A program made the position numbers and the translations under genes. The notes under the pieces are model-generated. The model was not told where the DNA came from, ran no database searches, and saw only the letters and a list, made by a program, of their open reading frames with translations. A stretch of DNA of 64,000 bases. It comes from Candidatus Omnitrophota bacterium. GTDB lineage: Bacteria; Omnitrophota; Gorgyraeia; Gygaellales; Profunditerraquicolaceae. Location of the stretch: positions 2,535-66,534 of the forward strand of contig JBFMDA010000001.1 of the NCBI GenBank assembly GCA_040754255.1, read 5' to 3'. Below are positions 7,869 through 46,440 of the stretch, piece by piece; the stretch's first letter is position 1; each line of letters starts with the position of its first letter.

Positions 7869-9406
7869 AGCAGGAAATAATACTAATCCTTGATTTTGGG
7901 TCGCAGTATACACAGCTTATTGCACGACGTATCAGGGAGCACAAGATCTTTTCAAAGATCGTACCTTACAATATTACTGCCAAAGAGATACACGAACTTT
8001 CGCCCAAGGGGTTGATCCTTTCCGGCGGCCCTTCTTCGGTAGTCGATAAAAAAAGCCCTTTGCCCGATGCGCGCATTTTCAAACTCGGCATTCCGGTGCT
8101 GGGTATTTGTTACGGGATGCAGGCGATTGCGCAGCTCTTGGGCGGAAGGACTAAGCATACCAAAGAAAGGGAGTACGGAAGAGCAGAAATTTTTATCGAT
8201 GATAACCGTACGCTTTTCAGTTCGCTTCCGGGAAATTTTACCTGCTGGGCAAGCCACGGCGATTATGTGACCAAGGTCCCGCCGGGCTTTAACATTATTG
8301 CCCATACCTTAAATTCGCCTATCGCGGCAATGGGGCACCGTGCCCGCAAAATTTACGGTGTTCAGTTCCATCCGGAAGTCACCCATACCGAAAAAGGCAA
8401 TCAAATCCTGAGCAATTTCCTGCTTAAGGTGTGCAGTTGCTCTGGCCGCTGGAACATGCATTCCTTCATCAAGCAGACAGTGGAAGAAATACGAAAGACC
8501 GTAGGCACACATAAGGTGGTGCTTGGTTTAAGCGGCGGCGTCGATTCGTCGGTAACCGCCCTTTTGCTGCACAGGGCCATCAAGCGGAATTCCCGCTGCA
8601 TTTTCATTAATAACGGCTTGCTAAGGAAAGACGAACCCGACCAGATTAAGAAAGTATTCCGCAGCAACTTCAAGCTCAACCTGGACTATGTAGAGGCAAG
8701 CAAACGGTTCCTTATCCGCCTTAAAGGGGTGGTTGAGCCTGAAGAAAAACGAAAAATAATCGGCAACGAATTCGTCAAGATTTTTGAATCAGAGGCAAAG
8801 AAGCTAAGGGGGGTCAGATTTCTTGCGCAAGGCACGCTTTACCCCGATGTCATTGAGTCGCTTTCTCCGATAGGTTCGCCTTCAAGCAAGATTAAAAGCC
8901 ATCACAACGTCGGCGGCCTTCCCGAACATATGAAACTAAAATTAATTGAGCCATTGCGGGAGCTGTTTAAAGATGAAGTCCGCCAGATCGGCAGGGAGCT
9001 GGGTTTACCGGATGCCATTTTATATCGCCAGCCGTTTCCAGGCCCGGGCCTTGCCATCCGGATAATCGGCGAAATAACCCCTGAACGCCTCAATATCTTA
9101 AGAGAGGTTGACTTCAGGGTGATGGAGGAAATTCAAAAAGAAAACCTGTCCAGGCAGATATGGCAGTCCTTTGCGATTCTCCTGCCCATTAAGAGCGTGG
9201 GTGTAATGGGCGATGAACGGACATACGAAAACGTAGTCGCTATCCGCTGCGTTTCCAGCGTTGACGGGATGACTGCCGACTGGTTCAAGCTGCCTCCGGA
9301 ACTCCTGGAAAGGCTCTCGCACAGGATTATCAACGAGGTCAAAGGCGTCAACCGCGTTGTCTACGATATCACCTCAAAGCCTCCAGCGACAATAGAGTGG
9401 GAATAG
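7865..9406 (+). CDS. guaA: GMP synthase (glutamine-hydrolysing)
   Basis: N-terminal class-I glutamine amidotransferase (ILILDFGSQYTQLIARR). ATP-PPase SGGVDSSV P-loop. C-terminal dimerisation domain ending IEWE. Confidence 0.9.
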   Translation: MKQEIILILDFGSQYTQLIARRIREHKIFSKIVPYNITAKEIHELSPKGLILSGGPSSVVDKKSPLPDARIFKLGIPVLGICYGMQAIAQLLGGRTKHTKEREYGRAEIFIDDNRTLFSSLPGNFTCWASHGDYVTKVPPGFNIIAHTLNSPIAAMGHRARKIYGVQFHPEVTHTEKGNQILSNFLLKVCSCSGRWNMHSFIKQTVEEIRKTVGTHKVVLGLSGGVDSSVTALLLHRAIKRNSRCIFINNGLLRKDEPDQIKKVFRSNFKLNLDYVEASKRFLIRLKGVVEPEEKRKIIGNEFVKIFESEAKKLRGVRFLAQGTLYPDVIESLSPIGSPSSKIKSHHNVGGLPEHMKLKLIEPLRELFKDEVRQIGRELGLPDAILYRQPFPGPGLAIRIIGEITPERLNILREVDFRVMEEIQKENLSRQIWQSFAILLPIKSVGVMGDERTYENVVAIRCVSSVDGMTADWFKLPPELLERLSHRIINEVKGVNRVVYDITSKPPATIEWE

Positions 9407-12926: not shown

Positions 12927-13138
12927 TTCGTATTGCGTACAGCGTACAGCGTACGGCGTAGCGCGTAAAGCCGGTTGTTGGGTTAGGGTGAAGCCATGGA
13001 TCTGGTTATTTGGTAATGTTGTTGGTAAAAAACACGCCAAAGACCTCACCCTAACAACTAGACAATCAACCTGGCCCTTATACCACACACACCGCTTTAC
13101 TCCTTGACCTTACTTAGCCTCGACCTAGGCCTTAACCT
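12927..13138. repeat. composite heptamer-repeat intergenic element: (GCGTACN)n, inverted-repeat core, then (CCTTRAC)n
   Basis: Starts directly after the dnaE stop. GTATTGCGTACAGCGTACAGCGTACGGCGTAGCGCGT, then GTTGTTGGGTTAGGGTGAAG / CCTCACCCTAACAAC inverted pair, then CCTTGACCTTACTTAGCCTCGACCTAGGCCTTAACC. Confidence 0.8.
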
Positions 13139-19183: not shown

Positions 19184-19538
19184 TACCGTATCCCGCGGGG
19201 ACTTGCATAAAGCCGGTGAATTGACTATCTGCTTCGTACACGACGCACAGATACAAACGCTCAATTCCCGCTTTCTTAAGATACAAAAACCCACGGACGT
19301 GTTAGCCTTCAAGCTCAGCGCAAAAAATGAGGAATTCCGCGCGGATATTATCATTTCCGCGGAAACGGCACTGCGTAATGCCGCGGAGTTTGGCACTTCG
19401 CCTTTTTTCGAACTCAGCCTCTATGTAGCCCACGGCATCCTTCATCTGCAGGGGTATGACGATAAAACCGTTAAAGGCACACAACAGATGTACAGAAGGG
19501 CAGTGGGGATTCTAAAGAAGAATAACATTAGTTCGTAG
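19107..19538 (+). CDS. ybeY: rRNA maturation endoribonuclease YbeY
   Basis: HGILHLQGYDD metal-binding motif. The chosen start overlaps the upstream gene. Confidence 0.75.
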   Translation: MLKIIIKNLQKKIPINPTRIKKLALSTVSRGDLHKAGELTICFVHDAQIQTLNSRFLKIQKPTDVLAFKLSAKNEEFRADIIISAETALRNAAEFGTSPFFELSLYVAHGILHLQGYDDKTVKGTQQMYRRAVGILKKNNISS

Positions 19539-19767
19539 TGCGTATAGCGTATTGCGTATAGCGTAGTGCGTACGGCCTTTACCGCGGAACGCATAACACT
19601 CTTGTTGTGTGGGTGTGGGTTAGGTCATTGGTTTGGTGAATGGGGGAAGGTAAATGGTGTAAAAAATTTACACCAATAACCTTACACTAACAACCAAACC
19701 ATTTACCTTCCCTCTATACTATACGCTCTACCTCAACCTTAGCCTTACTTAACCTAAACCTTAACCT
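19539..19767. repeat. composite heptamer-repeat element: (GCGTATN)n, palindromic core GGTGTAAAAAATTTACACC, then (CCTTAAC)n
   Basis: Starts right after the ybeY stop. The core from about 19560 to 19640 is a reverse-complement copy of the core at about 26400..26480. Confidence 0.85.
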
Positions 19768-19778
19768 TTTTCTACGAA

Positions 19779-20552
19779 ATGTCCATTCATAAAACCGAAG
19801 CGATAGTACTGAACCGCCGGCCTTTTCGGGAGACATCCCTGATCGCCGACTTTTTTACCCTTGAGTTCGGCAAGATCAACGGCTTATTAAAAGGGATTCG
19901 CACTGAACCGCAGAAGTTCTCAAGCCCCGTAGAGCTATTTTCGCTCAACGAGATTATTTTTTACCGAAGGCAGAATTCCGATATCCAGCTCGTAAGCCAA
20001 TGCGACCTAAAGCACAATTTTGATGCGATCCGCCGCGATGTGACAAAGGTAAGCCTTGCCAGCGTGATGATGGAACTGCTGCAGGCAGTCATGCCCGCGG
20101 AAGAAAAGAACGAAGAGATATTTAAGCTCGCCAGTGCGTCTCTTCAGGAAATGGAATCCTGCGTCAGGCCGGAGAAGATCGCCACTATTTTTAAAATAAA
20201 ACTACTTTCTTTATCCGGCTTTAAGCCCCACCTGGACTCCTGCGTATCCTGCGGCAATAAAATTTTAAGCCAGTCCAAATTCAGCCTTTCACTGGGCGGC
20301 CTCATCTGTGCTACGTGTAACCATAAAGACAAGAATGCCCGCCTTATTTTTCGGGGAACGATTGCCACCATCCTGCATATCGAAAAGAATGAAATGAAAA
20401 ATAATCTCAACCTAGGAATGAATCCCCAGATCAAAACAGAGCTGAACCTGATCCTGAACGCCTTCCTCACTTACCACCTTGAAAGAAGCTTCAAGGCGCA
20501 AAAGGTACTGGACGGGATGCAGAATACTATCGCGCTGCCCTTGCGCACGTAA
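19779..20552 (+). CDS. recO: DNA repair protein RecO
   Basis: N-terminal OB fold (EAIVLNRRPFRETSLI). C-terminal CxxC...CxxC zinc finger. Confidence 0.8.
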   Translation: MSIHKTEAIVLNRRPFRETSLIADFFTLEFGKINGLLKGIRTEPQKFSSPVELFSLNEIIFYRRQNSDIQLVSQCDLKHNFDAIRRDVTKVSLASVMMELLQAVMPAEEKNEEIFKLASASLQEMESCVRPEKIATIFKIKLLSLSGFKPHLDSCVSCGNKILSQSKFSLSLGGLICATCNHKDKNARLIFRGTIATILHIEKNEMKNNLNLGMNPQIKTELNLILNAFLTYHLERSFKAQKVLDGMQNTIALPLRT

Positions 20553-20566
20553 CTCTTATCTTCAAG

Positions 20567-22276
20567 ATGTTAAACCTGACAATCGCCGAAACCTTCAGGA
20601 ATATATCCCAACTGCTTGAAATACGCCAAGACAACCCTTTCCGCATAAGGGCATATGCACGGGCAGCGCAGGCCATCGAGGGGCTCAACGAAGACATCGA
20701 AACCGCCGCACAACAAGATACACTCAGGGAAATCCCCGGCATCGGAGAAGACCTGGAAAGAAAAATCAAAGAATTCATTTCAACGGGGAAAATCAGGGCC
20801 TACGAAGAATTAAAGAAAACATTCCCTGACGGCCTGCTTGAGTTGTTGCGTATCCCTTCAGTAGGGCCGAAGACCGCCAAACTGCTTTACGATGAGCTGC
20901 ATATACACAACGTTGCCGGTTTGGAGTCAGCCATCGCCAAAGGCAAGCTAAAAGGCATATTCGGCATCAAGGAAAAGACCATTGAGAACATCGCTTCTGG
21001 CATAAGGCTCCTTAAGGCCGGTAAAGAACGAATGCCGCTTTCGGTTGCCTGGCAGGCCGCGGAAAGTTTCTTAAAACCGCTTCATGGCTTACCGGGTGTT
21101 AAAAAAATTTCCTGCGCCGGCTCCCTGCGGCGCCAGAGAGAGACAATCAGGGATATAGATATTCTCCTCGCTTCTGAAGCCCCAAAAAAAATCATACGGT
21201 ATTTCACAGGCCTGCCTCAGGTAAAAGAAATTATTGCTTCCGGCAGCACAAAATCATCGGTACGCACGGCCGACGGCATCCAGGTTGATTGCCGCGCCGT
21301 CGTAGGGAAATCATTCGGGGCAGCGCTGCTTTATTTTACAGGCTCAAAAAATTTCAATATCAAATTAAGGCAGATTGCGATACAGAAAGGCTTAAAAATC
21401 AATGAGTACGGCGTATTCAGGGGAAACTCTTTTGTTGCGGGAAGGACGGAAGCTGAAATTTTCAAACTGCTGGGAATGGAATATATTGAGCCGGAGCTAA
21501 GGGAGGATACCGGCGAAATAGCGCTTGCGCAAAAAGGTACACTCCCGAAATTGATAACGCAGGATGATTTAAAGGGGGATTTGCATACGCACTCAAGCTG
21601 GTCTGACGGCAATAACACCATACAAGAGATGGCCCTTGCCGCGGCAAAGCTCGGTTACTCCTATATCGCCATAACAGACCATTCGCAGGGGCTTAAGATT
21701 GCCAACGGCCTTTCCGTAAAAGACCTTTTAAAAAAAAGAAAAGAAATCGAAAAGGTGAATACTGCATTGCGCCGGTGCAGGGTCCTTTACGGGACAGAGG
21801 TCGATATAGACTCACAGGGAAGGCTCGATTATTCCAACGAGACACTCAAGGAATTTGATATTGTCATCGCAGCGATTCACAGCGGTTTTAAACAGTCAAA
21901 AGAGAAGCTTACCCGCAGGATACTGAAAGCCTGCGATAACAAATACGTCAATATTATTTCTCATCCCACCGGCAGGCTCTGGGGGACGCGCGACGCCTAT
22001 GAAATAGATTTTGACGCGGTTCTAACGCGCGCCAAAGAAACCAACACCGCCCTTGAGATCAATTCTTATCCTCTGCGCCTTGACTTAAACGACCTCCATT
22101 GCCGCCGCGCAAAGGAACAGGGAGTAAAGCTGGTGATTAATACCGATTCTCACTCGCTTGAGCATCTCCGCGCAGCTAGATTCGGTGTTGCAGTTGCGCG
22201 CAGAGGGTGGCTTACTGCAAAAGATGTGCTCAATACGTTGCCCCTTGACGCCCTATTGAAAGCGATAAAAAAATGA
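20567..22276 (+). CDS. polX: family X DNA polymerase with C-terminal PHP domain (PolX)
   Basis: HhH motifs and a Pol-beta-like nucleotidyltransferase (GSLRRQRETIRDIDIL). PHP domain HTHSSWSDG. 569 aa. Confidence 0.8.
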   Translation: MLNLTIAETFRNISQLLEIRQDNPFRIRAYARAAQAIEGLNEDIETAAQQDTLREIPGIGEDLERKIKEFISTGKIRAYEELKKTFPDGLLELLRIPSVGPKTAKLLYDELHIHNVAGLESAIAKGKLKGIFGIKEKTIENIASGIRLLKAGKERMPLSVAWQAAESFLKPLHGLPGVKKISCAGSLRRQRETIRDIDILLASEAPKKIIRYFTGLPQVKEIIASGSTKSSVRTADGIQVDCRAVVGKSFGAALLYFTGSKNFNIKLRQIAIQKGLKINEYGVFRGNSFVAGRTEAEIFKLLGMEYIEPELREDTGEIALAQKGTLPKLITQDDLKGDLHTHSSWSDGNNTIQEMALAAAKLGYSYIAITDHSQGLKIANGLSVKDLLKKRKEIEKVNTALRRCRVLYGTEVDIDSQGRLDYSNETLKEFDIVIAAIHSGFKQSKEKLTRRILKACDNKYVNIISHPTGRLWGTRDAYEIDFDAVLTRAKETNTALEINSYPLRLDLNDLHCRRAKEQGVKLVINTDSHSLEHLRAARFGVAVARRGWLTAKDVLNTLPLDALLKAIKK

Positions 22277-22287
22277 AACAGCCTATT

Positions 22288-22410
22288 CGTTCCGTATTGC
22301 GTATTGCGTATCGCGTATCGCGTTATGCGTCCAGCGTTATGCGCAGGGCGTCTTGCGCATTGCGCAAAAGACCACGCGGAAAACCGGCTACCTCAGCCTT
22401 AACCTTAGCC
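22288..22410. repeat. heptamer-repeat element (GCGTATN)n then (CCTTAAC)n, overlapping the 5' end of apbE
   Basis: CGTATTGCGTATTGCGTATCGCGTATCGCGTTATGCG...CCTCAGCCTTAACCTTAGCC. Confidence 0.75.
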
Positions 22411-23331
22411 TTCTGTTCATCGCTAGTTATTCTATGCGGTTGTCAGCCCCGGCACCTATACAGGGAAACCCGCGTCATGATGGGGACGTTTATCGAGGTA
22501 ATTTCACCGGATGAGCGCTCGTCTGCTATTGCCTTTGAAGAAATAAAACGGATCGAGTCCCTCTTAAGCAAATACGACGAACACAGCGAAATATACAGGC
22601 TCAACAAAAACGGCAAAATAACTGCAAGCCCGGAAACATGGTATATAATGCAAAGGGCCAGGGAATTCTGGAAAAACTCAAACGGCGCATTCGATATAAC
22701 CGTAGGCCCCCTGATGAATGCCTGGGGGTTTACCGACAAGCGATATACGGTCCCCAAGAAACAGGAAATTAAGAAGGCATTAAGGCTTGTAGGAATGGAT
22801 AAAATTATTTTTCATAAAAACAATAATGTGATAGAATTTAGTATTCGCGGCATGTCGGTTGACTTAGGCGCTATCGCCAAAGGTTTTGCTATTGATTCCG
22901 CTATTAAAAAAATAAAGGCTGCGGGCGTAAAAAATTGCTTGATTAATGCAGGCGGAGATATATATTGTGTAGGTAAGAAATTCGGCAGGCCCTGGAAAGT
23001 GGCAGTGCAGAATCCTCGAGGAAGAAGTTTTTTGAGCACCTTGCGCCTGGAAGACAGCGCCATAGCCACTTCGGGGGATTATGAGCAGTATTTTAAGAAT
23101 AAGGAGGAAGTTTTTTCTCACATATTTGACCCCACAACAGGGGCTCCTGCGCAGGCCGGAATAACTTCAGTGACGGTTATTGCACAAGACTGCCTTACTG
23201 CAGATGCGTTGGCTACTTCCGTATTTGTGTTAGGCAGGGAAAAGGGGACAGAGATGATAAAAAAATACCCTCCCGCGAAAGCCTGCATCGTAGAGAGCAA
23301 TAACGAAGGAGAATTGGTAACTGTGCCATGA
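22339..23331 (+). CDS. apbE: FAD:protein FMN transferase (ApbE family), probable lipoprotein
   Basis: ApbE core from MMGTFIEVISPD at 22477. The in-frame upstream Met at 22339 gives a basic n-region, a hydrophobic h-region and a CGC lipobox-like signal. The ORF-track start at 22273 reads through the repeat. Alternative start 22477. Confidence 0.7.
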   Translation: MRRASCALRKRPRGKPATSALTLAFCSSLVILCGCQPRHLYRETRVMMGTFIEVISPDERSSAIAFEEIKRIESLLSKYDEHSEIYRLNKNGKITASPETWYIMQRAREFWKNSNGAFDITVGPLMNAWGFTDKRYTVPKKQEIKKALRLVGMDKIIFHKNNNVIEFSIRGMSVDLGAIAKGFAIDSAIKKIKAAGVKNCLINAGGDIYCVGKKFGRPWKVAVQNPRGRSFLSTLRLEDSAIATSGDYEQYFKNKEEVFSHIFDPTTGAPAQAGITSVTVIAQDCLTADALATSVFVLGREKGTEMIKKYPPAKACIVESNNEGELVTVP

Positions 23332-25593: not shown

Positions 25594-26318
25594 TGAAAAA
25601 GAAATACGCTAGATTTTTGCCGTGGATAGTGGTGTGGGGCGCAGCTATCCTTGTGATCACCACCTTCGGCAAGCCCTACGTGTTAAAAACCTATGTTGAA
25701 ATGGGTATCGGCACCTGCAATAAAATCCCGGTCTTATGCATTGTGCCGACAAAAGGGTTTACCAATCCTGCCGTTGACAAAAGCTATATCGCGGGGCTTG
25801 CAAGATACTCAATAGAGGAAATCGAAATCGCCCTTCCCAAAGATTTTTTCGTAATCAAAGAACAAATTTACAGGGCCTATTACAAAAAACGCAAGCGCAC
25901 CGAAAAAGACCCCGTCGCCTACCTGTTGTATCAGAAGCCGGATTTTTTCCAGTCGCTTTTCCCGCAGCTTAAGAAACTGAATCTCAGGAACAATTACGAT
26001 TTCTTAAACCGCATCCTTAACGCAAGGACTTCCGATATCAAAGACCTGCCCAGCACGCTCTTTGTGATACTGAAAAGTATTTTTACGCCCGACGTCGGAC
26101 CGGGCAGCGACATAAAAATCGCCCGGTTTAGCATGGCGGACAAAAGAGGGTTCATTACCTACAACTATACAAAAGAAGGCAATTACTTCAATTGCGATAT
26201 CGTAAACGGCAATCAGGAATTTTTCAAGGTATACCTCAAAGACAAGCAGAAAAAGCTGGATATAGATAAGGTACTTGCAATTATTTCTACGCTGCGTAGG
26301 AATAGCGAGAGAGGCTAA
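25593..26318 (+). CDS. hypothetical membrane-anchored protein
   Basis: Long ORF with an N-terminal TM segment. No recognisable domain. Confidence 0.4.
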   Translation: MKKKYARFLPWIVVWGAAILVITTFGKPYVLKTYVEMGIGTCNKIPVLCIVPTKGFTNPAVDKSYIAGLARYSIEEIEIALPKDFFVIKEQIYRAYYKKRKRTEKDPVAYLLYQKPDFFQSLFPQLKKLNLRNNYDFLNRILNARTSDIKDLPSTLFVILKSIFTPDVGPGSDIKIARFSMADKRGFITYNYTKEGNYFNCDIVNGNQEFFKVYLKDKQKKLDIDKVLAIISTLRRNSERG

Positions 26319-26527
26319 GGTCAAGGCTAAGATTAAGGTTGAGGGGGTAAAGGTAAGGTTAATGGTTTAGTTATTGGTGTAAGGTTGTTGGTGTGCGTGT
26401 TTTTACACCATCTACCTTCCCCCATCCACCAAACCAATGACCTAACCCACCACCCACACAACAAGAGTGTTATGCGTTCCGCGGTAAAGGCCGTACGCAC
26501 TACGCTATACGCAATACGCACTACGAA
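26319..26527. repeat. composite heptamer-repeat element in flipped orientation: (GGTYAAG)n, palindromic core, then (TACGCNA)n
   Basis: GGTCAAGGCTAAGATTAAGGTTGAGGGGGTAAAGGTAAGGTTAATGG ... GCCGTACGCACTACGCTATACGCAATACGCACTACGAAAAC. Core is the reverse complement of 19560..19640. Confidence 0.85.
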
Positions 26528-32207: not shown

Positions 32208-32293
32208 TTCCGTTTTGCGTATTGCGTATAGCGTATTGCATTAACTGTTTTCGCAATAAGGCCTACGCGATACGCACTACGCTATACACACAA
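32208..32293. repeat. TACGC-heptamer inverted-repeat hairpin element (GCGTATT arm, 20-nt loop, TACGCNA arm)
   Basis: TTGCGTATTGCGTATAGCGTATTGC ... GCGATACGCACTACGCTATACAC. The arms are approximate reverse complements. Confidence 0.8.
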
Positions 32294-32298
32294 CGAAT

Positions 32299-33632: not shown

Positions 33633-33790
33633 CAGTCTAAACTCTAAACACGAAATCCTAAATTCTAAACAAATCATAAATCACAAATCCCAATGAATTA
33701 AACGAATTCGTTTGAGATTTAAGAAGTTGGAAATTGGAATTTGTTTAGAATTTAGAGTTTCGGATTTAGAATTTGCCGGATAGCTCGTTT
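33633..33790. repeat. family-C heptamer palindrome: (TCTAAAC/AAATCAC)n, centre TAAACGAATTCGTTTGA, then (GAATTTG/TTTAGAA)n
   Basis: About 150-nt imperfect inverted repeat made of 7-nt units between the apt stop and tRNA-Arg. Confidence 0.75.
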
Positions 33791-33808: not shown

Positions 33809-33882
33809 GCCCCTGTAGCTCATAAGGATAGAGCAGCAGTTTCCTAAACTGCGTGCGGCAGGTTCGATTCCTGCCAGGGGCA
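33809..33882 (+). tRNA. tRNA-Arg (anticodon CCT)
   Basis: Hand-folded cloverleaf: 7-bp acceptor GCCCCTG/CAGGGGC, D-arm GCTC/GAGC, anticodon loop TTCCTAA, T-arm GCAGG-TTCGATT-CCTGC, discriminator A. CCA not encoded. Confidence 0.8.
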
Positions 33883-34091: not shown

Positions 34092-34220
34092 CGTTATGCG
34101 TATTGCGTAGTGCGTATCGCGGAAAACCAAAGCTAGCGCATAACGCTGAACGCTCAACGCATAACGCCGTACGCTATGCGCTATACGCTATACGCAATAC
34201 GGAATACGCACTACGAAAAG
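34092..34220. repeat. TACGC-heptamer inverted-repeat element (GCGTATN arm ... TACGCNA arm) ending ACGAAAAGGAGGG at the RBS
   Basis: CGTTATGCGTATTGCGTAGTGCGTATCGCG ... TACGCTATGCGCTATACGCTATACGCAATACGGAATACGCACTACGAAAAGG. Confidence 0.8.
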
Positions 34221-34229
34221 GAGGGCAAC

Positions 34230-34679
34230 ATGAAGCACGTTTTCATTATAGCACTAAGCATTCTGCTATTATCAACCACCGGCTGCGCGAATTTATCCAG
34301 AAAAGACGTAGGCACCCAAAGTAATCTGCTTGAGCCTTCAATGTCTGCGCGGTTCACGGACATCCCTGTTCCTGTGAGGTTCAAATTTATCCCCAAGGAA
34401 TCCTATGCCTTCGAATCCTCCGGCGTAAGAGTAGGCGTGCTTAAATACAGGGGAAAGGCAACTGCTGATCAGGTGCTCAATTTCTATAAAGAACAGATGC
34501 CGATGAACAGCTGGATGTTGCTAAATATTATTGAATATAATCAAAGGATAATGAATTTCGAAAAAAACAACGAGAGCTGTATTGTAACCCTTTTGCCATC
34601 AGGTAGTTCTGTTGCGGTAACCGTATATATCGGCCCGATTTCGCAATATCCGAAGAAGGCCAGCAGGCCTCTAAAATAG
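34230..34679 (+). CDS. hypothetical lipoprotein
   Basis: MKHVFIIALSILLLSTTGC lipoprotein signal with an AAAGGAGGG RBS. The ORF-track start at 34176 reads through the repeat. Confidence 0.55.
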   Translation: MKHVFIIALSILLLSTTGCANLSRKDVGTQSNLLEPSMSARFTDIPVPVRFKFIPKESYAFESSGVRVGVLKYRGKATADQVLNFYKEQMPMNSWMLLNIIEYNQRIMNFEKNNESCIVTLLPSGSSVAVTVYIGPISQYPKKASRPLK

Positions 34680-36295: not shown

Positions 36296-36446
36296 TGAAA
36301 GGTTAAAGGTCCAAAGGGTAAGGTTATGGGTCTGGTTATTGGGTAAAGTAGGTAGTGTAAAAACGCACCAACAACCTCACCCCAACAACTAAACCATCAA
36401 CCTTACCTTAACCCAAGCAATACGCGATACGCAATACGCACTACGA
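36296..36446. repeat. composite heptamer-repeat element: (GGTTAAG)n, core, (CCTTAAC)n, then (TACGCNA)n ending TACGAACCT before the ATG
   Basis: Direct reading between the porin terminator and the GH57 start. Confidence 0.8.
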
Positions 36447-36450
36447 ACCT

Positions 36451-38007: not shown

Positions 38008-38050
38008 TTTCGTATCGCGTATAGCGTAGTGCGTATAGCGTATAGCGCGT
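38008..38050. repeat. left GCGTATN-heptamer arm flanking the four-helix-bundle gene
   Basis: TTTCGTATCGCGTATAGCGTAGTGCGTATAGCGTATAGCGCG. Confidence 0.8.
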
Positions 38051-38471: not shown

Positions 38472-38505
38472 CACGCAATACGCGATACGCAATACGCGAT
38501 ACGAC
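38472..38505. repeat. right TACGCNA-heptamer arm flanking the four-helix-bundle gene
   Basis: CGCAATACGCGATACGCAATACGCGATACGACAA. Inverse orientation to the arm at 38008..38050. Confidence 0.8.
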
Positions 38506-45915: not shown

Positions 45916-46440
45916 ATGAGCAAAACTATAAGCGAACTTAAACGATTACAAGAACACCGCCAAAACGGCAACAGTCACTCTACAAGTGACGCGTCGCAAC
46001 CTATAAACGCTGAACGTCGTGGGCAATACGCAATACGCAATACGCAATACGAAAAACGCCGTACCTACGCCGTACCCAGCGTTATTATGTATCTACTACT
46101 AACGCTCAACTTCGCTCTATCCCTCGGGCTATTGGCTTTATTCTATAGCTCAAGAACCGAACGCCAAACAACTCTAACCCAGCTTAATTCTACAATTCAG
46201 GCTATGGAACTCTCTAACGCAGCCTTACTAAGCTCGTTCACTAAAAAGTTCAATCAAGCGAGCGTCGAGATAGAAAAGGCGTCAAAGAGGACGGAGGAGA
46301 TGGGGGTAACTGTCAAAGAATTAAACAAGGAGCAAGAAGCGCAACGCTTTGCAATTGAAACCCTTACAAAAGCAAAAAATACACTGTTTAATAGAATAAA
46401 TTTATTAGAAGCAAATTTAAATTCTAAAAGTAACGAATAA
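45916..46440 (+). CDS. hypothetical TM/coiled-coil protein containing an in-frame TACGCAA repeat (start ambiguous)
   Basis: ORF 174 aa with an internal GGCAATACGCAATACGCAATACGCAATACGAAAAA at 46017..46054 translated YAIRNTQYEK. A shorter alternative starts at the ATG at 46087 (TM helix plus coiled coil). Confidence 0.4.
   Translation: MSKTISELKRLQEHRQNGNSHSTSDASQPINAERRGQYAIRNTQYEKRRTYAVPSVIMYLLLTLNFALSLGLLALFYSSRTERQTTLTQLNSTIQAMELSNAALLSSFTKKFNQASVEIEKASKRTEEMGVTVKELNKEQEAQRFAIETLTKAKNTLFNRINLLEANLNSKSNE

What the first reader, a model, noticed from the sequence alone, without database searches (positions are those of the whole stretch)
22288..22480. Repeat element overlaps the apbE start: likely start codon and signal peptide are encoded by heptamer-repeat sequence
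- The GCGTATN then CCTTAAC element after polX runs into the apbE reading frame.
- The in-frame ATG at 22339 lies inside the repeat (GCGTTATGCGCAGGGCG).
- Translation from there gives a classical signal peptide: MRRASCALRKRPRGKPATS, then ALTLAFCSSLVIL, then CGC.
- The hydrophobic core of that peptide is encoded by the CCTCAGCCTTAACCTTAGCC heptamers.
- The ApbE catalytic core proper only begins at MMGT (22477).
- Either a repeat insertion was exapted as a secretion signal or the true start is 22477 and the protein is cytoplasmic.
Basis: partly seen in the sequence, partly recalled or inferred. Interest (0 to 1): 0.5.

Follow-up and report, generated by a model that had tools for sequence, protein, structure and literature searches.

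The report
Repeat-built lipoprotein signal peptide of ApbE
A dispersed 7-base/6-base tandem repeat that normally fills the gaps between genes in this Omnitrophota genome sits, in frame, inside the part of the apbE gene that encodes its cleavable lipoprotein export signal. Related genomes show the same thing repeatedly, so these repeats appear to be recruited as raw material for signal peptides.

Summary
The repeat is real. Eleven GCG-phased heptamers (22292-22368), a 21-nt spacer and about four CCTYAR units (22390-22412) begin 8-16 nt after the polX stop. The CCTYAR units are hexamers, not heptamers. All of this lies inside the apbE ORF.

The repeat belongs to a dispersed family: GCGTATN pairs give 79 hits against 4.7 expected, almost all of them in intergenic gaps.

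ApbE is a lipoprotein. The motif LCGC-Q-xx-LY-x-E/D-x-R-x-MMGT is conserved in about 100 of 120 orthologues. A start at 22477, giving a cytoplasmic protein, is therefore refuted, and the hexamers must be translated.

Thirteen of 19 related loci use this ATGA overlap, and the frame stays open through the repeat in all three close relatives. Their lengths differ by 42 nt, which is six heptamers or 14 codons.

In relative L001, the signal-peptide-coding segment is 86% identical over 98 nt to an intergenic copy of the element. Across orthologues, signal peptides show a 7-residue periodicity that the mature protein lacks.

The repeat is therefore an insertion into, and partial replacement of, an ancestral signal peptide. 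All of it is removed by signal peptidase II. Which start codon is used remains inferred.

The parts
20567..22276 (+). polX (family X DNA polymerase with PHP domain). Its TGA stop (22274-22276) overlaps the apbE ATG.
   Evidence: ORF. Pfam HHH_8, DNA_pol_B_thumb and PHP hits. polX lies directly upstream of apbE in 15 or more related loci.
22273..23331 (+). apbE (FAD:protein FMN transferase) as the longest ORF, 352 aa. This is the most likely real gene extent.
   Evidence: Pfam PF02424 E 4e-90 over aa 70-337. The identical 352-aa product is annotated by NCBI in a Candidatus Omnitrophota MAG (P0001).
22273..22276 (+). ATGA stop/start overlap. This is the ancestral, translationally coupled apbE start codon.
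   Evidence: The ATGA overlap is in frame with apbE in 13 of 19 Omnitrophota loci. It is in frame and open through the repeat in the window, L001 and L002.
22285..22368 (+). Heptamer array: leader unit ATTCGTT, then 11 GCG-phased units (4 near-perfect GCGTATY units, then degenerate ones). If translation starts at 22273 it encodes the Arg-rich n-region I5..K32.
   Evidence: It has no stop codon in any of the three frames, unlike all five other + orientation arrays in the window.
22312..22353 (+). Approximate position of the 42-nt (6-heptamer, 14-codon) segment present in the window but absent from the 89%-identical relative L002. It contains ATG 22339.
   Evidence: Protein alignment A4. DNA. 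Paralogous degenerate tail on the minus strand at about 34133-34217.
22297..22299 (+). Alternative in-frame TTG inside the array.
   Evidence: No Shine-Dalgarno sequence.
22339..22341 (+). It is not conserved in L002 or L001.
   Evidence: No Shine-Dalgarno sequence (+1.2 kcal/mol).
22360..22362 (+). In-frame TTG in the last GTATTG unit, exactly 10 codons before ACC TCA GCC in the window, L001 and L002. The same spacing also occurs in the non-coding paralogue, so the spacing is a property of the element.
   Evidence: Weak Shine-Dalgarno-like AGGG (-3.5 kcal/mol, within background).
22369..22389 (+). Spacer of the short-form element (AGACCACGCGGAAAACCGGCT). It encodes the end of the basic n-region (RPRGKPA).
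   Evidence: 26 nt (22380-22405) are 100% identical between the window and L001. The same spacer is present in the L001 intergenic paralogue.
22390..22412 (+). Hexamer array ACCTCA GCCTTA ACCTTA GCCTT, read as T-S-A-L-T-L-A. This is the first part of the hydrophobic region.
   Evidence: TRF period 6/12. D2. Family enrichment of 10 against 0.05 expected. Expanded to ...ALALALASALTL in L001.
22413..22443 (+). Non-repeat remainder of the hydrophobic region plus the lipobox L-C-G-C. The lipidated Cys+1 is codon 57 (22441-22443).
   Evidence: PS51257 match FCSSLVILCGC. LCGCQ is the commonest lipobox among 120 orthologues (43 cases).
22444..22479 (+). Conserved mature N-terminus QPRHLYRETRVM that precedes the Pfam ApbE domain.
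   Evidence: Conserved as Q(N/S)xxLY(K/R)(D/E)x(R/Q)(V/I)M in the orthologue list. C57, Q58 and L62 are invariant or nearly invariant in alignment A1.

Best explanation
The feature is an in-frame tandem-repeat tract inside the sequence that encodes the cleavable lipoprotein signal peptide of ApbE.

The genome is a Candidatus Omnitrophota MAG full of STRR-like boundary repeats. GCGTAKN heptamer arrays start a few bases after stop codons. Their reverse complements end just before the next start codon. CCTYAR hexamer arrays often accompany them.

Ancestrally, apbE starts at an ATG that overlaps the polX stop (ATGA), so there is no intergenic gap. The post-stop repeat of polX therefore landed inside the first codons of apbE.

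Translation most likely still begins at ATG 22273 by termination-reinitiation coupling. On that reading:
- The heptamers (rich in CGT, CGC and GCG, with no GA-containing codons) are read as a 37-residue, +12-charged, acid-free n-region.
- The hexamers, read as GCC-TTA and ACC-TTA, supply the first third of the hydrophobic region.
- Non-repeat sequence supplies the rest of the hydrophobic region and the lipobox LCGC.

After Sec export, Lgt would lipidate Cys57 and LspA would cut in front of it. Every repeat-encoded residue is then discarded and mature ApbE is unchanged. This explains why this coding segment tolerates repeats.

Shown: the anatomy of the repeat, its membership of a dispersed family, the conserved lipobox, the necessity of translating the hexamers, and frame preservation in the three close relatives. 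Inferred: use of ATG 22273 rather than an internal start, and the Lgt/LspA processing steps.
For: - Repeat anatomy and enrichment.
- Post-stop and pre-start placement rule for 15 arrays in the window.
- ApbE identity.
- Organism and annotated 352-aa product.
- Conserved lipobox and mature N-terminus: 100 of 120 orthologues match PS51257.
- The ATGA overlap is the start of short, plain signal peptides in L006, L007, L010, L088, L089, L090, L092 and L094, and occurs in 13 of 19 loci overall.
- Frame preservation: in the window, L002 and L001 the ATGA ATG is in frame and stop-free through repeats of different length (68, 54 and 59 codons before MMGT). The window and L002 differ by 42 nt, exactly 6 heptamers and 14 codons.
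- The window's heptamer tract has no stop in any frame, whereas 12 of 24 units in the other + arrays carry TAG or TAA.
- Arrays are unavoidably translated in orthologues that have no other canonical start. L099 has (GATTACA)x4.5 plus (TTCTCTG)x5, giving MKPGLQITDYRLQIKFLILFSVLCFLYSVLSGC. L098 has a 56-aa signal peptide containing a GCGTATA-type array. L088 and L012 have arrays in the hydrophobic region.
- Residue identity at lag 7 is 0.191 in signal-peptide regions, against 0.06-0.11 at other lags and 0.054 in mature regions.
- Ten of 19 loci exceed every control segment for period-7 signal.
- Paralogy of the coding segment with an intergenic copy in L001: 84/98 identities, E 3e-28.
Against: - No experimental data exist on the start codon.
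- None of the candidate starts has a convincing Shine-Dalgarno sequence.
- A 56-residue lipoprotein signal peptide with a 37-residue n-region is well outside the usual range.
- The ATG at 22273 would be conserved anyway, because it is formed by the polX Lys codon plus TGA.
- Frame preservation rests on only three related genomes, roughly p = 0.04 if the events are independent.
- The 33-nt TTG-to-ACC spacing that keeps TTG 22360 in frame also occurs in the non-coding paralogue. It therefore does not discriminate between starts.
- Many long N-termini in the orthologue list may be gene-caller over-extensions.
- The presence of Lgt and LspA in this genome was not checked.
Confidence: 0.6

Rival explanations
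1. Translation starts at an internal codon inside the repeat: TTG 22360 (giving MRKRPRGKPATSALTLAFCSSLVILCGC, a textbook 27-residue lipoprotein signal) or the reader's ATG 22339. Most of the heptamer array would then be an untranslated intercistronic spacer like every other array in the genome, and only the spacer and hexamers would be coding.
For: - All other GCGTAKN arrays but one in the window are non-coding and sit right after stops.
- TTG 22360 gives the most canonical signal-peptide length and n-region charge (+5).
- A TTG at the same position is present in L001 and L002.
- It has slightly better Shine-Dalgarno-like pairing (-3.5 kcal/mol) than 22273.
Against: - ATG 22339 is absent from L002 and L001.
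- The TTG and its spacing are intrinsic to the element even where it is non-coding.
- The Shine-Dalgarno scores are within background.
- This reading does not explain the preserved frame and the total absence of stops from 22273 through arrays of three different lengths.
- Orthologues L099 and L098 prove that arrays downstream of the polX-adjacent ATG are translated.
Confidence: 0.27
2. The heptamer tract is a contingency (phase-variation) locus like the CTCTT repeats in the Neisseria opa leader. Gain or loss of one 7-nt unit would shift the frame between ATG 22273 and the lipobox and switch ApbE export on or off.
For: - The unit length is not a multiple of 3.
- The tract lies in the leader-peptide coding region downstream of the start, exactly as in opa (PMC3960869).
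- Copy number differs between relatives.
Against: - Only 4-5 near-perfect units are present, and the rest are degenerate.
- The only observed length difference is frame-preserving (42 nt).
- The same arrays fill most intergenic gaps, where phase variation is meaningless.
- ApbE is a housekeeping flavin transferase, not a surface antigen.
- The two assemblies of the L002-type contig (L002, L003), which may not be independent, are identical across the junction.
Confidence: 0.08
3. The true start is ATG 22477/22480 (MMGT). The upstream ORF is a chance read-through of a stop-free repeat, and ApbE is cytoplasmic.
For: - Gene callers chose MMGT for the 89% relative (P0002) and for two others (P0092, P0110).
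- The Pfam model begins at residue 70.
- It has the best, though still weak, Shine-Dalgarno-like score, -4.9 kcal/mol.
Against: - The 13 residues between the lipobox Cys and MMGT, and the lipobox itself, are conserved across about 100 of 120 orthologues, including those without any repeat.
- The window-to-L002 differences between the lipobox Cys and MMGT look like those of coding sequence: three appear synonymous and two replace an amino acid, read by hand.
Confidence: 0.02

Closest known systems
Neisseria opa genes: CTCTT pentamer 'coding repeats' in the leader-peptide region
   Same: A short tandem repeat whose unit is not a multiple of 3 lies inside the signal-peptide-coding 5' end of the gene and is translated as part of the leader (PMC3960869).
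   Different: The opa tracts are long, perfect and hypermutable, and they switch the frame at about 1e-3 per generation. Here only 4-5 perfect units are followed by degenerate ones. The one observed length change preserves the frame. The repeat belongs to a genome-wide intergenic family. The protein is a housekeeping enzyme.
STRR (short tandemly repeated repetitive) heptanucleotide sequences of heterocystous cyanobacteria
   Same: Both are dispersed arrays of 7-bp units, mostly intergenic and often hairpin-forming, of unknown function. Proposed roles are transcript stability or translational coupling (PMC2670836). The window shows the same type of arrays at gene boundaries.
   Different: The phylum differs (Omnitrophota). 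The unit sequences differ (GCGTAKN, ATAGACC, TCTAAAC and others). Here the arrays obey a strand rule relative to stop and start codons, are combined with CCTYAR hexamer arrays, and are demonstrably translated in some genes. Full-text searches combining Omnitrophica or Omnitrophota with repeat terms returned no papers.
ApbE/Ftp lipoproteins (for example E. coli ApbE and Treponema pallidum Ftp; stated from general knowledge)
   Same: Periplasmic FAD:protein FMN transferase anchored by an N-terminal lipidated Cys. JGI names for orthologues include 'thiamine biosynthesis lipoprotein'.
   Different: The usual signal peptide is about 20 residues and non-repetitive. Here it is up to 56 residues, and roughly two thirds of it is repeat-encoded.
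Extended signal peptide regions (ESPR) of autotransporters (from general knowledge)
   Same: An unusually long, basic N-terminal extension (about 50-60 aa in total) precedes a normal hydrophobic region.
   Different: ESPR is a conserved sequence motif with a proposed kinetic role. The extension here is a non-conserved translation of repeats, with no sequence similarity to ESPR.

Membership tests
ApbE / FAD:protein FMN transferase (Pfam PF02424) | Full-length match to the family profile above the curated threshold | tested here: met
   302 bits against a cut-off of 25.6, E 4.3e-90, profile positions 1-264 of 266, residues 70-337. 5574 homologues at E <= 1e-30.
Bacterial lipoprotein signal peptide (SPase II type; PROSITE PS51257 rule) | Lipobox [LIVMFWSTAG](2)-[LIVMFYSTAGCQ]-[AGS]-C preceded by 6 uncharged residues, with a basic n-region and a hydrophobic region | tested here: met
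   FCSSLVILCGC matches. Cys+1 is residue 57. The uncharged stretch is 19 aa with mean Kyte-Doolittle hydropathy 1.65. The n-region charge is +5 to +12 depending on the start.
Bacterial lipoprotein signal peptide (SPase II type; PROSITE PS51257 rule) | Lipobox Cys conserved in orthologues | tested here: met
   100 of 120 orthologues match the rule. LCGCQ occurs in 43 and LSGCQ in 18. C57 and Q58 are nearly invariant in A1.
Bacterial lipoprotein signal peptide (SPase II type; PROSITE PS51257 rule) | Processing by Lgt and LspA (lipidation, globomycin-sensitive cleavage) | not testable with these tools
   Needs experiment. The presence of lgt and lspA in the genome was not checked.
STRR-like dispersed heptanucleotide arrays | Tandem 7-bp units, many copies dispersed over the genome, predominantly intergenic | tested here: met
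   About 30 period-7/14 rows in 64 kb. 79 hits against 4.7 expected. 13 of 15 GCGTA-type arrays are intergenic. 7.2 stringent arrays per 100 kb in Omnitrophota loci against 0.8 in other phyla, and almost none at periods 5, 6 or 8-11.
STRR-like dispersed heptanucleotide arrays | Cyanobacterial lineage and the canonical STRR unit sequences (as recalled: CCCCAGT, TTGGTCA, CAACAGT) | tested here: not met
   The organism is Candidatus Omnitrophota. The units are GCGTAKN and others. It is an analogue of the named STRR families, not a member.
Phase-variable coding repeats (opa type) | Repeat in the leader-peptide coding region, with a unit length not divisible by 3 | tested here: met
Phase-variable coding repeats (opa type) | Long perfect tract, with copy-number variants that shift the frame | tested here: not met
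   At most 4-5 near-perfect units. The only length difference seen between relatives is 42 nt, which preserves the frame. No population data are available.
Twin-arginine (Tat) signal peptide | S/T-R-R-x-F-L-K motif conserved in orthologues | tested here: not met
   VMRRASC does not fit the motif. The RR lies in the window-specific 42-nt segment, and orthologues lack it.

The most novel reading that the evidence does not exclude
In this Omnitrophota lineage, heptanucleotide boundary repeats act as a recurrent source of new N-terminal targeting sequence. Arrays that arise next to stop and start codons are repeatedly absorbed into the apbE reading frame. There a purine-rich or CG-rich array yields a basic n-region, and a pyrimidine-rich array yields the hydrophobic core. 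That second array is often the complementary arm of a hairpin pair, or a GCCTTA hexamer array. On this reading, whole signal peptides are born from, and turned over by, non-coding repeats, with the cleaved leader acting as a safe harbour for them.
Probability: 0.4. Interest if true: 0.7.

Novelty: new variant of a known kind. Interest (0 to 1): 0.5.

Why it matters
**Annotation.** The analysis fixes the gene model. ApbE here is an exported lipoprotein that most likely starts at 22273, not a cytoplasmic protein starting at MMGT. Gene callers disagree on exactly this point (352 aa against 284 aa for near-identical genes). The same error class probably affects many Omnitrophota genes that adjoin stop-free arrays.

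**Origin of signal peptides.** This is a concrete, comparative case of coding sequence being recruited from a dispersed non-coding repeat. A signal-peptide segment is 86% identical to an intergenic copy. Nearly half of the orthologous signal peptides carry the 7-residue periodicity that translated heptamers produce. That makes the origin and turnover of signal peptides testable in a defined gene family.

**A possibly undescribed repeat system.** It points to an STRR-like repeat system in an uncultivated phylum, for which the full-text searches here found no description. The arrays follow a strand rule relative to stop and start codons, which hints at an RNA-level function.

Tried and rejected
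- Exact-product look-up of PolX to find the source contig returned nothing on record.
- Rfam returned only a tRNA at the gathering threshold, and nothing meaningful at E <= 1 around 19450-22520. The one hit was CsrC at 14 bits, which is noise.
- A protein search with the repeat-encoded N-terminus alone (alignment A5), meant to find other protein families carrying the same element, gave 707 candidates and none with E <= 10. Even the source proteins failed to score, so the result is uninformative (one search was a parameter error).
- Anti-Shine-Dalgarno duplex energies for the six candidate starts are all within genomic background and do not discriminate.
- The RNA fold of the apbE 5' region is not more stable than shuffles (z -1.55), so there is no evidence for a regulatory hairpin there.
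- The multiple alignment of the apbE 5' region against the long composite elements at 19529-19770 and 26310-26527 aligns only in the low-complexity arrays. I do not claim that the window copy is a deletion derivative of the long form.
- The genome-contig scan was saturated by generic ApbE patterns and returned only about 12 Omnitrophota loci. The metagenome scan returned 14 loci. No further members of the window/L002/L001 clade were found, so the frame-preservation argument rests on three genomes.
- A Tat signal was considered and rejected.
- An assembly artefact was considered unlikely. The arrays are shorter than a sequencing read, and the two L002-type assemblies agree.
Full report
**1. What is in the sequence**

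polX (20567-22276) ends in AAA AAA TGA. An ATG at 22273 overlaps this stop (ATGA) and opens a 352-codon ORF whose residues 70-337 match Pfam ApbE at E 4e-90. The identical 352-aa product is annotated by NCBI as FAD:protein FMN transferase in a Candidatus Omnitrophota MAG.

A period-7 array starts eight bases after the stop. It has a leader unit ATTCGTT, then CCGTATT GCGTATT GCGTATC GCGTATC GCGTTAT GCGTCCA GCGTTAT GCGCAGG GCGTCTT GCGCATT GCGCAAA (22292-22368). TRF, the repeat finder and manual phasing agree.

A 21-nt spacer follows, and then ACCTCA GCCTTA ACCTTA GCCTT (22390-22412).

Both repeat types are far beyond chance. GCGTATNGCGTAT gives 79 hits against 4.7 expected, and CCTYAR trimers give 10 against 0.05.

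**2. The repeat belongs to a dispersed boundary-repeat family**

Almost all genes in the window are on the + strand. There are about fifteen GCGTAKN arrays.
- Arrays in + orientation begin 2-16 nt after a stop codon (12928, 19533, 22292, 32210, 38010).
- Arrays in reverse-complement orientation end just before the Shine-Dalgarno sequence or ATG of the next gene (32297, 34217, 36447, 40303, 45043, 45912).

The apbE-associated array obeys the post-stop rule. It falls inside a gene only because apbE has no intergenic gap.

Other heptamer types (ATAGACC, TCTAAAC, ACCATAG, CTCCGAG) also occur. Stringent period-7 arrays run at 7.2 per 100 kb in the Omnitrophota loci I collected, against 0.8 in other phyla. 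Other periods are essentially absent.

The closest described analogue is the cyanobacterial STRR heptamers, whose function is also unknown (PMC2670836). Searches of the paper library that combined Omnitrophica or Omnitrophota with repeat terms returned no papers.

**3. ApbE is a lipoprotein, so the MMGT start is refuted**

Of the 120 best homologues, 100 match the PROSITE lipobox rule. Nearly all share L(C/S)GC-Q-x-x-L-Y-(K/R)-(D/E)-x-(R/Q)-x-MMGTFVEV, and LCGCQ is the commonest form. The window has LCGC-QPRHLYRETRV-MMGT, with Cys+1 at codon 57 (22441-22443).

No canonical in-frame start lies between the hexamers and the lipobox. A lipobox needs a hydrophobic region in front of it. The hexamers must therefore be translated, and the start lies at or upstream of 22360. 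The three database proteins that begin at MMGT (including the 89% relative P0002) are most simply explained as gene-caller choices.

**4. Which start**

In-frame candidates are ATG 22273, TTG 22297, ATG 22339 and TTG 22360.

*Comparative evidence.* In 13 of 19 Omnitrophota loci with polX upstream, the apbE ATG overlaps the polX stop as ATGA. In the repeat-free loci this ATG is followed at once by a short, plain lipoprotein signal such as MKKILYCLLVVILSGC in L089. That is the ancestral arrangement.

*Frame preservation.* The window's two syntenic relatives are L002 (89% aa identity) and L001 (72%). In all three genomes the ATGA ATG is in frame and stop-free through repeats of different length: 68, 54 and 59 codons before MMGT. 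The window differs from L002 by 42 nt, which is six heptamers or 14 codons.

*Stop codons.* The window's array contains no stop in any frame, whereas half of the units in the other + arrays carry TAG or TAA.

It is also part of a recurrent degenerate tail of this array type; the paralogue on the minus strand at about 34133-34217 reads AGCGTTATGCGCTAG.

*TTG 22360.* It is conserved in position, but the same 33-nt TTG-to-ACC spacing exists in a non-coding paralogue. That conservation is therefore not evidence for initiation.

*Shine-Dalgarno.* Pairing energies do not discriminate, and overlapping starts in this genome often lack a Shine-Dalgarno sequence.

*Arrays translated elsewhere.* In several orthologues an array is certainly translated, because there is no other start:
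- L099 reads ATGA, then (GATTACA)x4.5 and (TTCTCTG)x5, which encode the entire signal MKPGLQITDYRLQIKFLILFSVLCFLYSVLSGC.
- L098 has a 56-residue signal containing a GCGTATA-type array whose four TAGs are all out of frame.
- L088 and L012 have arrays as the hydrophobic region.

I therefore put about 0.6 on 22273, about 0.27 on an internal start, and about 0.02 on 22477.

**5. Exaptation**

In L001 the apbE segment 4034-4131 runs from the last heptamer through the spacer and the hexamers to three codons before the lipobox Cys. It is 84/98 identical, ungapped (E 3e-28), to the minus strand of an intergenic region (8011-8108). The match includes the non-repetitive string CTCAACCTCTCATTTTGCGTTAGCCTTGGCC. 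The window shares 26 identical bases of the spacer/hexamer junction with L001. The signal-peptide-coding segment is therefore a copy of a dispersed, normally non-coding element.

Across the 100 orthologues that have a lipobox, residue identity at lag 7 is 0.191 in the signal-peptide region. It is 0.06-0.11 at other lags and 0.054 in the mature protein. Forty-six of the 100 show five or more lag-7 identities.

At the DNA level, 10 of 19 loci have a period-7 signal in the signal-peptide segment that exceeds every one of 38 control segments several-fold longer.

Several orthologues (L004, L085, L087) carry inverted array pairs. The purine-rich arm reads as a Lys/Arg-rich n-region, and the complementary arm reads as a Leu/Phe/Ser-rich hydrophobic region.

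The ancestral signal peptide and lipobox clearly pre-date the repeats. The accurate description is an in-frame insertion into, and in L001 a near-complete replacement of, an existing cleavable leader.

**6. How it works (inferred)**

- Coupled initiation at the polX stop.
- A long Arg-rich, acid-free n-region from the heptamers. GCGTATY read in all three frames gives A, Y, R, V, S, I, L and C, and no acidic residues.
- Ala, Leu, Thr and Ser from the hexamers.
- Sec export, Lgt lipidation of Cys57, and LspA cleavage.

Because the leader is discarded, the constraints reduce to positive charge, hydrophobicity and an open frame. This explains both the tolerance and the purging of stop-containing units.

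In the window the two other lipoproteins (16223, and the gene starting at about 34230) have plain signals. The apbE case therefore seems to be tied to the lack of an intergenic gap.

**7. Verdict**

Its details are partly wrong: the second repeat is hexamers, the overlapping ATG was missed, and the signal is of the lipoprotein type. The other is supported in modified form.

Relative to known biology this is a new variant of known kinds, namely opa-type coding repeats in a leader (PMC3960869) and STRR-like arrays. It has a wider and, as far as I could search, undescribed pattern behind it.

Noticed in passing
window 12928-12962, 19533-19574, 22292-22319, 32210-32237, 38010-38044 (+ orientation); 26493-26527, 32263-32297, 34148-34217, 36420-36447, 38478-38505, 40262-40303, 45009-45043, 45878-45912 (reverse complement): There is a strand rule. 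GCGTAKN arrays in + orientation abut the stop codon of the upstream gene. Reverse-complement arrays (…ATACGCN…ACGAA) abut the Shine-Dalgarno sequence or ATG of the downstream gene. Where both occur in one gap (32210/32263, 34098/34148, 38010/38478) they could pair and bring the stop and the start together. This suggests an RNA-level role, but function was not tested.
   Followed up: partly
window 19529-19770 (+) and 26310-26527 (-): These are two copies of a ~220-240-nt composite element, closely similar where they align, made of a heptamer array, GGCCTTTACCGCGGAACGCATAACAC, a long internal hairpin and a CCTYAR hexamer array. They lie in inverted orientation and flank the recO-polX-apbE-mgtE-panB-ORF block. 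The recO-proximal copy folds far better than shuffles (z -4.3). There is no Rfam match. The orthologous gaps in L001 and L002 hold the same end arrays but different internal modules.
   Followed up: partly
window 46023-46059 inside ORF 45916-46440: A (CAATACG)x5 array lies in frame in a small coiled-coil membrane protein. It encodes GQYAIRNTQYEK immediately before the single transmembrane helix. This is a second case of an array translated in a basic segment before a hydrophobic segment.
   Followed up: partly
window 44815-44845 inside ORF 43997-45001: A heptamer array (CTCCGAG CTCCGAG CTATGAG CTCTGAG) lies in frame, reading SELRAMSSEL, between the large N-terminal part and a Cys-rich C-terminal region of a 334-aa protein whose family was not checked.
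   Followed up: no
window 40316-40780: A small ORF with a strong Shine-Dalgarno sequence. Its N-terminal half is a Lys/Pro/Arg-rich low-complexity region encoded by 18-nt (GCGAAAAAGAAAAAACCT) and CCTAAG hexamer repeats, the same hexamer family read in another frame. It has no Pfam hit. More hexamers follow its stop, at 40790-40843.
   Followed up: no
window 34176-34679: The listed ORF start is an over-extension through a stop-free reverse-orientation array. The real start is most likely the ATG at about 34230, preceded by AAGGAGG, giving a plain lipoprotein signal MKHVFIIALSILLLSTTGC. This illustrates how these arrays mislead gene callers.
   Followed up: partly
L099 3005-3090: An orthologue's whole signal peptide is encoded by (GATTACA)x4.5 followed by (TTCTCTG)x5, directly after the ATGA overlap with polX.
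   Followed up: yes
window 33636-33774, next to the tRNA at 33809-33882: Three adjacent arrays of other heptamers (TCTAAAC, ACAAATC, TTTAGAA; the first and last are near reverse complements) lie just upstream of the only tRNA gene in the window.
   Followed up: no
non-Omnitrophota loci L016-L081: Three stringent period-7 arrays, and none of any other period from 5 to 11, were counted in 362 kb from other phyla. I did not look at which genomes they come from or where they sit.
   Followed up: no
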